Origin: Escherichia coli
GTDB taxonomy: Bacteria; Pseudomonadota; Gammaproteobacteria; Enterobacterales; Enterobacteriaceae
Reading direction: 5' to 3' (one strand)
NCBI RefSeq assembly: GCF_030013205.1
Contig: NZ_CP122648.1
DNA length: 64,000 nt
Shown here: one piece after another, positions 22,101 through 25,100 of the stretch
How the letters are laid out: each line of letters opens with the position of its first letter
Position numbering within the stretch: position 1 is the first letter of the stretch
Program-made: the position numbers

Positions 22101-25100
22101 TTGGTCAGTGAAATATCCAGCAGTTGCGACGCGCGTTTTGCGTCGTCATAAAACAGTTCATAAAAATCACCCATCCGGTAAAACAGCAGGATCTCGGGAT
22201 GCTGGGCTTTCAGCTTGAGATATTGCTGCATCATGGGCGTATGGGCATCGAAATTTTCTATTGCACTCATGGGGTTATGTCCGGTTCCCTGATATTAAAT
22301 GGGGTGTGATGGTTTTTATTTTCGTTGTAATCACATAAGGCGCACATGATACCGGAGTTAATCATTTCAGGGGAAGAAGCGAACGGCGAGTTCTTGATGG
22401 TGATTCCGGGAAAGATGCTGTTTTGCAGCTTTTGCGTGATGCTTATGAAGCAGGTACGCAAAATTGCGTCGGTTGAATAAACCTCCTCCTTCAGAGCCAT
22501 AGTCCCCTTTCAAATTAAGTTGTAATATAAATACACCTTAAGAGTATGGAGGCAGCATGTCCGGCAAGCGTATCTCTCGTGAAAAACTGACGATTAAAAA
22601 AATGATCGATCTTTATCAAGCGAAATGCCCGCAGGCGTCAGCGGAGCCGGAGCATTACGACGCGCTGTTTGCCTACGCGCAAAAGCGGCTGGATAAATGT
22701 GTGTTCGGCGAAGAGAAACCAGCCTGTAAGCAGTGTCCGGTGCACTGTTACCAGCCTGCAAAGCGTGAAGAGATGAAACAGATTATGCGTTGGGCCGGGC
22801 CGAGAATGCTGTGGCGTCATCCGATCTTAACCGTGCGTCATCTCATCGATGACAAGCGTCCGGTGCCGGAGTTGCCAGAAAAATATCGTCCAAAGAAATA
22901 AATCTGCCGGAGAGCCATACTCTCCGGCAAATAAGGCGTTTACGCTTTGGTGGCAATCAGGATGGCTGATGCTTTGATCAATGCAATAACGCGCGAGCCA
23001 GTGGTGAGTTTCATTTCATCCTGACTTTCATTTGTTACCACTGCCACAATTTCAAAACCCGCATCCGTTTTGATATGGACAGTGGCGTTCACTGCGCCTT
23101 CGGTGATTGTCGACACGCTGCCAGCAAACTGGTTGCGAGCAGAGAATTTCAGTCCACAGTCTTCCGTTGCCAGCGTTACCCACGGGGCTTTAATCAGGGC
23201 AATCGCTTCTTTCCCTTTCGCCAGACCCAGCGCTTGCTGGCTGCTGTGAGTCACAATTGCCACCAGCTTTGCACCACCTGCCAGCGTCAGTTCTACTTCA
23301 TCATTCACAGCGCCCATTGCTACTGCGCTAACTGTTCCGGTTAATTGATTTCTTGCTGAAACTGCCATACTGCCTCCTTTCATTGAATGTTGATCGAGTA
23401 TAACCACATCTGTTAAATCAATGCCGATTTATCAATTCCAAGCCGCTTCATCCGTGACAGCAGGGTCGTGCGTTTCAGCCCCAGACGTTGCGCAGCGCCT
23501 TTAGGCCCGGCAACCACGCCGTTGGTTTCTTTCAGCACGCGAACAATCAACTGATATTCATCTTCGCCCTCCTGGGCGACAACCGTTGCGGCGGGCGGCG
23601 TTTCTGGTTCCGGTAAAACAATATCTGGCAGTGACAGCTGCAGCACGTTGCCGCGTGTTAGCAATACCGCGCGCTCAATGACGTTTTCCAGTTCGCGTAC
23701 GTTACCCGGCCACTCCATGTTGCTCAGGATGCGCAGCGTCTCGGCAGGAATGCTGTCGATATTGCGCCCCAGACGACGGGCAATTTTGAAGGTAAAGGCT
23801 TTCGCCAGCAGCGGAATATCTTCCGGACGCTCGCGTAGTGGCGGCAGGTGAATCGGGAATACGTTCAGGCGGTAATAGAGATCGCTACGGAACTCACGGT
23901 CGGCGACCATTTTTTTCAGATCGCGGTTAGTTGCGGCGATTAGACGCACGTCCGTCTGAATGATTTTGTTGCTGCCGAGACGTTCAAACTCCTGTTCCTG
24001 TAATACACGCAGCAACTTCGGCTGTAACTCCAGTGGCATATCGCCCACTTCGTCGAGGAACAGGGAGCTTTTATCCGCCAGTTCAAAACGACCAATGCGC
24101 TGGGCGCTGGCACCGGTAAAAGCCCCACGCTCATGACCAAACAGATCGCTCTCCAGCAATCCGGCAGGCATCGCCGCGCAGTTCATTTTGACCATGCGGC
24201 GATTATTACGCCCACTGAGATTATGGATCGCGCGGGCAATCAGCTCTTTACCTGTACCAGTTTCACCGAGAATCAGCACGGTACTGTCGCTTTGCGCCAC
24301 CATTTCAACTTGTTTAAGTACGCTGTACATGGCTTCGCTGCGGCCAATAATCTCGCCAAATTCACTATCAACATTGTTGAGCTGCTCGGTCAGGGCGAGG
24401 TTTTCATCAACCAGCCGTTCTTTCAGACGATGGATTTCCTGATAGGCGAGGGCGTTATCGACAGCGATTGCCACACGTTCGGCAATCTGGCGCAGTAAAT
24501 TCAGATTGGTAGTGGTAAACACTTTCTCTTCGCATTGCGCCAGTTTCAGCACGCCCAGCATGGTGTCGCCAGACATCAGCGGTAACAGGCACAAGGTTTG
24601 AATCTGGTTGCCCCAGGTGTCGAACAACATACGTTCATAGGGGGCTAAATCGTCCCGCTCGTGGAGATTAATCAACAGCATCTCTTTACTTTTGAAGACG
24701 CGTTCGGTGAGGGTTCCGGCTTCATCGACTTCGCTCTGTTCGTGGGCGGGATGCTGTTTATCAAGATAGTGAGTGGAGTAGATGTTGAGTTTGTTTTTAC
24801 GGTGGCTGCGTAAGACGATGCTGATATCGTCAATGTCGAAGTAGTAATGGATTTCTTTGGCGACTTCGCTGACCAGTTCGTCCATATCCAGGCGGGAAAG
24901 CACCGCGTTGGTAATGGCAACCAGGATGCGGAAGTTATCGCGTTCCCGGCATAACAACTCATAGTCGACATTGTTAACGACGCGACTCTGGATTTGTTCG
25001 GTGACGACAGAAACGATCTGCGTAAATGTTTGCAGACGATTGAACTCTTTTTCGCTCCAGGGGCGATCGTCATAACGAATAAATTCACAGCCACCAAAAA

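What the first reader, a model, noticed from the sequence alone, without database searches (positions are those of the whole stretch)
22501..22556. NsrR-like operator upstream of ygbA
AAGTTGTAATATAAATACACCTT lies immediately upstream of ygbA and resembles the NsrR inverted-repeat consensus as I remember it. That would put ygbA under nitrosative-stress control, next to the NO-responsive norRVW locus in the same window.
Basis: partly seen in the sequence, partly recalled or inferred. Interest (0 to 1): 0.25.

Follow-up and report, generated by a model that had tools for sequence, protein, structure and literature searches.

The report
Known NsrR operator at ygbA promoter

Summary
The quoted 23-mer AAGTTGTAATATAAATACACCTT is at window 22517-22539, ending 17 nt before the ygbA start codon at 22557. 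The window is E. coli.

I built a position weight matrix from published NsrR sites with ygbA left out. The 23-mer scores 20.7-22.0 bits (P per position 2-5e-8). That is rank 1 of 63,978 positions in the window.

A site of the same design lies 13-22 nt before ygbA in most of 94 of 110 other Enterobacterales species genomes. Only 0.7% of control windows score as well. Apart from that site, the only conserved upstream signals are a TTG 17 bp before site positions 7-12 and a G-rich ribosome-binding stretch downstream. Positions 7-12 read TATTAT in most species and TAATAT here.

My inference is that the operator's left arm doubles as the promoter -10 element, so bound NsrR blocks RNA polymerase until NO inactivates it.

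The literature already lists ygbA as an NsrR target, including the CFT073 site, which differs by 1 nt. Five operator alleles that differ only at positions 4, 17 and 20 cover 98% of 5,426 E. coli genomes. The window's allele is in 24% of them.

Interest is low.

The parts
22517..22539 (.). NsrR operator, an 11-1-11 imperfect inverted repeat: AAGTTGTAATA-T-AAATACACCTT.
   Evidence: Exact match. Matrix score 20.7-22.0 bits, rank 1 in the window, P 2-5e-8. The arms are complementary at 8 of 11 positions. Conserved upstream of ygbA in 94 of 110 species genomes. It differs by 1 nt from the published CFT073 ygbA site.
22517..22527 (.). Left half-site AAGTTGTAATA, the weaker arm.
   Evidence: It scores 7.1 bits against 13.8 for the right arm. 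A at position 9 and A at position 11 score -2.7 and -1.9 bits.
22529..22539 (.). Right half-site AAATACACCTT (reverse complement AAGGTGTATTT), the stronger arm.
   Evidence: It scores 13.8 bits. Across species its consensus is AAATGCAtCTT, which is the NsrR half-site consensus.
22523..22528 (+). Predicted -10 hexamer TAATAT (TATTAT in most other genera), embedded in operator positions 7-12.
   Evidence: This is inferred. T7, A8, A11 and T12 are kept in 90-94 of 94 species. The NsrR matrix disfavours A11 and is indifferent at spacer position 12, and the mirror positions 13 and 17 do not show the same constraint. No transcription start data were found.
22500..22505 (+). Predicted weak -35 hexamer TAGTCC, 17 bp upstream of the predicted -10.
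   Evidence: This is inferred. Across species a TTG is conserved at exactly this offset (T 54, T 50, G 75 of 94), and it is the only conserved block upstream of the operator. E. coli itself matches only 3 of 6 positions, so the consensus promoter scan did not report it.
22548..22552 (+). Shine-Dalgarno GGAGG of ygbA.
   Evidence: Read directly from the sequence. A G-rich block is conserved at this offset across species (positions 31-34).
22557..22901 (+). ygbA coding sequence (114 aa, YgbA_NO family, function unknown), the regulated gene.
   Evidence: ORF. Pfam PF11756, E 4e-41. RefSeq annotation. 795 homologues, the listed ones from Enterobacterales.

Best explanation
This is the NsrR operator of the ygbA promoter in E. 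coli. NsrR is an Rrf2-family repressor that carries an NO-sensitive iron-sulfur cluster and binds as a dimer. Each subunit contacts one 11-bp arm of the 23-bp inverted repeat at 22517-22539. The operator's left arm contains the promoter's -10 hexamer (22523-22528). A weak -35 lies 17 bp upstream, and transcription probably starts within or just after the right arm, about 20 nt before the ATG. Bound NsrR therefore blocks RNA polymerase. When NO nitrosylates the cluster, NsrR leaves the DNA and ygbA is transcribed.

Shown here: the sequence, its matrix score, its conservation and its fixed position.

Taken from the literature: NsrR binding to the ygbA promoter and NsrR/NO-dependent expression of ygbA.

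Inferred: the overlap with the -10 element, the start site, and repression by occlusion.
For: Matrix: with ygbA left out, the site is rank 1 of 63,978 positions at 21.4-22.0 bits. That falls in the middle of the scores of the sites the matrix was built from. Exact P is 2e-8 to 1e-6 depending on the background.

Published site: Table 4 of PMC5320621 lists ygbA AAGGTGCATTTATATTACAACTT, ln P -16.65. It is the reverse complement of the window site with one difference, G instead of A at position 17.

Published regulation: ygbA is regulated by NsrR in E. coli and bound in K-12 ChIP-chip, as cited. It rose 31.8-fold in a Salmonella nsrR mutant and was induced in nitrate-grown CFT073.

Conservation across species: 94 of 110 usable species loci have a site of at least 11 bits in the 200 nt before ygbA. 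86 of those lie 13-22 nt from the ATG. Only 36 of 4,908 control windows (0.7%) from the same loci score as well. Information content is 1.4-2.0 bits at 14 of the 23 operator positions and about 0.1 in most of the flanks.

Promoter overlap: T7, A8, A11 and T12 are nearly invariant but are not what NsrR prefers, and the other arm does not mirror them. A TTG sits exactly 17 bp upstream.

Conservation within E. coli: five operator alleles that differ only at positions 4 (T/A), 17 (A/G) and 20 (C/T) account for 5,331 of 5,426 complete genomes. All score 20.7-22.6 bits.
Against: ChIP-seq in CFT073 found no NsrR peak at ygbA. The authors call this a probable false negative.

The left arm is weak (7.1 bits). 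E. coli has A at position 9 where most genera have the consensus T.

The generic sigma-70 scan found no promoter here, and I found no transcription start mapping for ygbA. The promoter geometry is therefore inference.

The primary papers (Bodenmiller & Spiro 2006, Partridge 2009, Karlinsey 2012) could not be read. Their results are known here only through papers that cite them.

nsrR itself is not in the window.
Confidence: 0.93

Rival explanations
1. NsrR works here essentially through the right 11-bp arm alone (22529-22539). The left arm is mainly the -10 hexamer and only resembles a half-site.
For: The right arm scores 13.8 bits and the left 7.1. The left-arm positions that are most conserved are those a -10 element needs. 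The literature reports that a single 11-bp motif can act as an NsrR site (Partridge 2009, as cited).
Against: Left-arm positions outside the -10 hexamer are also conserved and match the NsrR consensus: A1 and A2 in 93 of 94 species, G6 in 92 of 94, and T5 in 63 of 94. The full 23-mer passes the published 11-1-11 threshold.
Confidence: 0.12
2. The resemblance is coincidental. The sequence is just an A+T-rich core promoter, and NsrR acts on ygbA indirectly.
For: The region is A+T-rich and holds a -10-like hexamer. With a 65% A+T background P rises to 1e-6. CFT073 ChIP-seq showed no peak.
Against: Even at P = 1e-6, only 0.07 sites are expected in the window. The right arm ATGCAyCTT lies outside the -10 hexamer and is kept in 94 species while the flanks are randomised. 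The site is enriched 85% against 0.7% in control windows. K-12 ChIP-chip binding is reported.
Confidence: 0.02
3. The palindrome is the operator of a different regulator, such as IscR or another Rrf2 protein, FNR, or NarL/NarP.
For: Nitrate and nitrite induce ygbA, and several regulators respond to those conditions.
Against: The conserved columns reproduce the NsrR consensus AAGATGCATTT-N-AAATGCATCTT rather than TTGAT-N4-ATCAA (the FNR consensus, from my own knowledge of the field). No second conserved block exists upstream apart from the -35 TTG. Derepression in nsrR mutants is published.
Confidence: 0.02

Closest known systems
The ygbA NsrR site of E. coli CFT073 (PMC5320621, Table 4) and of K-12 (Bodenmiller & Spiro 2006; Partridge 2009)
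   Same: Same gene, same position and same 11-1-11 design. 22 of 23 bases are identical to the CFT073 site and 21 of 23 to the K-12 site.
   Different: It is an allelic variant. The window has T4/A17/C20, CFT073 and UTI89 have T4/G17/C20, and K-12 has A4/A17/T20. Of the five alleles seen, the window's scores lowest (20.7 bits; range 20.7-22.6) and is carried by 1,299 of 5,426 genomes.
The ytfE, hcp and hmp NsrR operators of E. coli
   Same: All are 23-bp 11-1-11 inverted repeats around AAGATGCATTT-N-AAATGCATCTT in the promoters of NO-stress genes.
   Different: The ytfE site is a near-perfect palindrome (32 bits with my matrix) and the ygbA site is mid-range (about 21 bits). The ygbA left arm departs from the consensus at positions 7, 9 and 11, where it spells a -10 hexamer.
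ygbA of Salmonella enterica as a member of the NsrR regulon (PMC2884951)
   Same: The orthologous gene carries an orthologous site: AAGGTGTAAAATAAATGCATCTT in subsp. diarizonae, 19 nt before the ATG (locus L041). It was derepressed 31.8-fold in an nsrR mutant.
   Different: The Salmonella sites differ at several positions, and the arizonae site scores only 12 bits.

Membership tests
E. coli-type NsrR operator (11-1-11 inverted repeat) | A 23-bp sequence matching the NsrR position weight matrix (consensus AAGATGCATTT-N-AAATGCATCTT) above the published threshold. | tested here: met
   20.7-22.0 bits, ln P -16.8 to -17.7, rank 1 of 63,978 using a matrix that excludes ygbA. The published cut-off is ln P -14.28, and the CFT073 allele scored -16.65.
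E. coli-type NsrR operator (11-1-11 inverted repeat) | Inverted-repeat symmetry with a 1-bp spacer. | tested here: met
   The arms are complementary at 8 of 11 positions around a single central base.
E. coli-type NsrR operator (11-1-11 inverted repeat) | Location in a regulatory region, overlapping or next to core promoter elements of the downstream gene. | tested here: inconclusive
   The site is intergenic and ends 17 nt before the ygbA ATG. The comparative profile places a -10 hexamer inside it and a -35 TTG 17 bp upstream. However, the consensus scan found no promoter, and no start-site data were found.
E. coli-type NsrR operator (11-1-11 inverted repeat) | Conservation upstream of orthologous genes in related genomes. 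| tested here: met
   94 of 110 species loci have a site of at least 11 bits, against 0.7% of control windows. The distance to the ATG is 13-22 nt in 86 of the 94.
E. coli-type NsrR operator (11-1-11 inverted repeat) | Physical binding by NsrR (ChIP, EMSA or footprint). | not testable with these tools
   From the literature only. K-12 ChIP-chip was positive (Partridge 2009, as cited). CFT073 ChIP-seq was negative, which the authors judged a false negative. This allele has not been assayed as far as I could find.
E. coli-type NsrR operator (11-1-11 inverted repeat) | Expression of the downstream gene depends on NsrR and NO. | not testable with these tools
   From the literature. E. coli K-12 (Bodenmiller & Spiro 2006, as cited). 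Salmonella nsrR mutant, 31.8-fold. Induction in CFT073 grown with nitrate.
E. coli-type NsrR operator (11-1-11 inverted repeat) | The nsrR gene is present in the same genome. | not tested
   nsrR is not in this 64-kb window. The CFT073 paper states that NsrR is identical in CFT073 and K-12. Its presence in this strain is assumed.

The most novel reading that the evidence does not exclude
The three polymorphic operator positions (4, 17 and 20) define five common alleles in E. coli. These might set different NsrR affinities, and so strain-specific NO thresholds for ygbA induction. The window's allele (T4/A17/C20, 24% of genomes) would be the leakiest. A second, minor point is that the operator's left arm is constrained both by RNA polymerase and by NsrR, which may explain why it never evolves toward the perfect palindrome.
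Probability: 0.2. Interest if true: 0.2.

Novelty: already known. Interest (0 to 1): 0.08.

Why it matters
It confirms that a textbook piece of the E. coli nitrosative-stress regulon is intact in this strain. ygbA, a small cysteine-rich protein of unknown function, is wired to the NO sensor NsrR. Nothing new follows for the field.

Three things are added here:
- a cross-genus footprint showing that the operator, a -35 TTG and the ribosome-binding site are the only conserved non-coding signals at this promoter;
- evidence that the left half-site doubles as the -10 element;
- a census of operator alleles in 5,426 E. coli genomes.

The real open question is what YgbA does, and this finding does not address it.

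Tried and rejected
- The consensus sigma-70 promoter scan of 22200-22960 found nothing. The promoter was inferred from the cross-species profile instead.
- An Rfam scan of 22200-23000 at E up to 1 found no RNA family, so a structured-RNA reading has no support.
- I tried to read Bodenmiller & Spiro 2006, Partridge 2009 and Karlinsey 2012. None is held.
- A full-text search for a ygbA transcription start site returned no paper.
- The 44-aa ORF in the mutS-ygbA spacer has no Pfam match.
- I assumed the whole window was colinear with strain CFSAN018748. That was wrong outside 19472-57920 because of IS1 and IS200 differences, so annotation was transferred only where the coordinates agree.
- I looked at species that lack a proximal site (Atlantibacter, Mixta, Edwardsiella, Morganella and some metagenome-assembled genomes). 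In Atlantibacter, ygbA directly follows another gene. In Morganella, and in one Enterobacterales MAG (L049), the strong NsrR-like site belongs to a neighbouring gene. These are lineage-specific rearrangements and do not count against the E. coli site.

Full report
WHAT IS THERE. The quoted string AAGTTGTAATATAAATACACCTT occurs once in the window, at 22517-22539 on the + strand. It ends 17 nt before the ATG (22557) of a 114-aa ORF. The ORF is YgbA: Pfam YgbA_NO, E 4e-41. The site lies in the 286-bp spacer between divergent mutS (19709-22270, - strand) and ygbA. The window is Escherichia coli. The spacer is 100% identical to strain CFSAN018748 and is found in 5,419 of 5,426 complete E. coli genomes. 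Window 19472-57920 is colinear with that strain at about 99.9% identity.

IS IT MORE THAN CHANCE? Table 4 of Mehta et al. 2015 (PMC5320621) lists 27 NsrR 11-1-11 sites of E. coli CFT073. I built palindromic weight matrices from two subsets: 25 sites (ygbA and one duplicate removed), and the 16 ChIP-seq-positive sites. With the two matrices the window site scores 21.4 and 22.0 bits. It ranks first of 63,978 positions in both, and falls in the middle of the scores of the sites the matrices were built from. Exact score distributions give P per position of 2.0e-8 (window composition), 5.3e-8 (uniform) and 1.0e-6 (65% A+T). That means 0.001-0.07 sites expected in the window.

COMPARISON WITH PUBLISHED SITES. 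The same table lists the ygbA site of CFT073 as AAGGTGCATTTATATTACAACTT, PatSer ln P -16.65 against a cut-off of -14.28. It is the reverse complement of the window site with one difference, G instead of A at position 17. [quoted passage not shown] The CFT073 ChIP-seq experiment missed it, and the authors call that a probable false negative. Rodionov et al. 2005 already mention ygbA as a target of the NO-sensitive repressor. In Salmonella Typhimurium an nsrR mutant had 31.8-fold more ygbA mRNA. I could not open the three primary papers, so these experimental results are second-hand.

CONSERVATION ACROSS SPECIES. YgbA homologues occur throughout the Enterobacterales and share an invariant block REEMK..MRW.GP. 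I back-translated that block into a DNA pattern and scanned the species-representative genome collection with it. This returned 120 loci, all containing ygbA. Of 110 loci with enough upstream sequence, 94 have a site of at least 11 bits within 200 nt of ygbA. Only 36 of 4,908 control windows from the same loci (0.7%) score as well. At a threshold of 18 bits the figures are 54% and 0.08%. In 86 of the 94 the site ends 13-22 nt before the start codon.

When the sequences are anchored on the site, information content is 1.4-2.0 bits at 14 of the 23 operator positions and about 0.1 bit in most of the flanking columns. So the flanks are mutationally saturated while the operator is kept. The cross-species consensus is AAgkTGTATTAT.aATGCAtCTT. 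Its right arm equals the NsrR half-site consensus.

PROMOTER GEOMETRY (INFERRED). Three features of the profile are not what NsrR alone would impose.
- Position 11 is A in 90 of 94 species, although the NsrR matrix penalises A there by 1.9 bits.
- The central spacer position 12, where the matrix has no preference, is T in 92 of 94.
- Position 7 is T in 93 of 94, where NsrR sites more often have C.

The mirror positions 13 and 17 do not show matching constraints. Positions 7-12 read TATTAT (TAATAT in E. coli, 22523-22528), which has the critical A at -11 and T at -7 of a sigma-70 -10 hexamer. The only conserved block upstream of the operator is TTG, exactly 17 bp before that hexamer (T 54, T 50, G 75 of 94). 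In E. coli it reads TAGTCC (22500-22505), a weak -35. That weakness explains why the generic promoter scan reported nothing.

The simplest model follows. The -10 element lies within the left arm, and transcription starts in or just after the right arm. The leader is about 20 nt and carries the GGAGG at 22548-22552. Repression is by occlusion of RNA polymerase, relieved when NO destroys the NsrR iron-sulfur cluster. That NsrR is an [Fe-S] NO-sensitive repressor is stated. No other conserved upstream block exists, so there is no comparative evidence for an additional activator site.

VARIATION WITHIN E. COLI. An alignment of six strains shows that the operator varies only at positions 4 (T/A), 17 (A/G) and 20 (C/T). 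I ran exact-word searches with 30-mers for the five observed alleles:

| Allele (positions 4/17/20) | Example strain | Genomes |
|---|---|---|
| A4/A17/T20 | K-12 type | 2,111 |
| T4/A17/C20 | this window | 1,299 |
| T4/G17/C20 | UTI89 / CFT073 type | 1,120 |
| T4/G17/T20 | GN04592 | 682 |
| A4/G17/T20 | A2 | 119 |

Together these are 5,331 of 5,426 genomes. All five score 20.7-22.6 bits, and the window allele is the lowest. The three variable positions are ones where published NsrR sites use either base. E. coli also carries A at position 9, where most genera have the consensus T. That weakens the left arm (7.1 bits against 13.8 for the right arm).

RIVALS. A pure-coincidence reading is excluded by the P-value and by conservation of the right arm outside the -10 hexamer. 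A different regulator is unlikely, because the conserved columns reproduce the NsrR consensus and nsrR mutants derepress the gene. A half-site mode, in which the right arm does most of the work, remains possible (about 0.12). Against it, left-arm positions 1, 2 and 6 lie outside the -10 hexamer and are nearly invariant, and T5 is kept in 63 of 94.

EXCEPTIONS. Sixteen species loci lack a proximal site.
- In Atlantibacter, ygbA directly follows another ORF.
- In Morganella, a strong site (AAGATGCATAATATTTACATCTT) precedes an 82-aa ORF about 700 nt upstream.
- In one metagenome-assembled genome, a ytfE-like gene lying tail-to-tail with ygbA carries the site.

VERDICT. This is a member of the E. 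coli NsrR operator class, and the site and its regulation are already known. Interest is low. What this analysis adds is the dual operator/-10 reading and the allele census.

Noticed in passing
window 29922-29944: AAATGACATTTCATCGGCATGTT lies between the hycA stop (29855) and the hycB start (29980). It is identical to the ChIP-seq-positive 'hycB' NsrR site of CFT073 and is the second-best matrix hit in the window (16.9-17.2 bits). That score is circular, because this site was in the set the matrix was built from.
   Followed up: partly
window 22940-23407 (- strand): A TOBE-domain gene (two TOBE repeats) sits between ygbA and fhlA here and in UTI89 and GN04592. It is absent in K-12-like strains, where ygbA is 117 aa instead of 114. 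This is an insertion/deletion polymorphism at the 3' end of ygbA.
   Followed up: partly
window ~18704-19471: An IS1 element (InsA/InsB ORFs at 18719-19416) replaces 291 bp of pphB relative to the otherwise near-identical strain CFSAN018748. That strain in turn has an IS200C between recA and recX that the window lacks.
   Followed up: partly
window 3953-4347: A type I-E CRISPR array with 7 repeats (GTGTTCCCCGCGCCAGCGGGGATAAACCG) spaced 61 nt apart lies downstream of the casA-to-cas2 genes.
   Followed up: partly
window 37423-38150: A HigB-family toxin gene and a helix-turn-helix antitoxin gene are annotated between hycI and ascB in the colinear reference genome.
   Followed up: no
window 22346-22480: RefSeq annotates a 44-aa 'hypothetical protein' in the mutS-ygbA spacer. 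It has no Pfam match. A small hairpin followed by a T-run lies inside it at 22417-22429.
   Followed up: partly
L004 (E. coli A2, platypus isolate): An IS3 element has replaced the mutS-proximal part of the mutS-ygbA spacer. Similarity to the other strains resumes about 65 nt upstream of the operator, and the operator and predicted promoter are intact.
   Followed up: partly
L028 and L092 (Morganella psychrotolerans and a related locus), about 700 nt upstream of ygbA: There is no NsrR-like site at ygbA itself. A strong one (19.6-21.0 bits) precedes an 82-aa ORF (MSEKPSVHGHEVMNMII...) nearby. This may be a lineage-specific member of the NsrR regulon.
   Followed up: partly
E. coli population, operator positions 4, 17 and 20 (window 22520, 22533, 22536): Five operator alleles account for 5,331 of 5,426 complete genomes. 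The other 20 positions are effectively fixed.
   Followed up: yes
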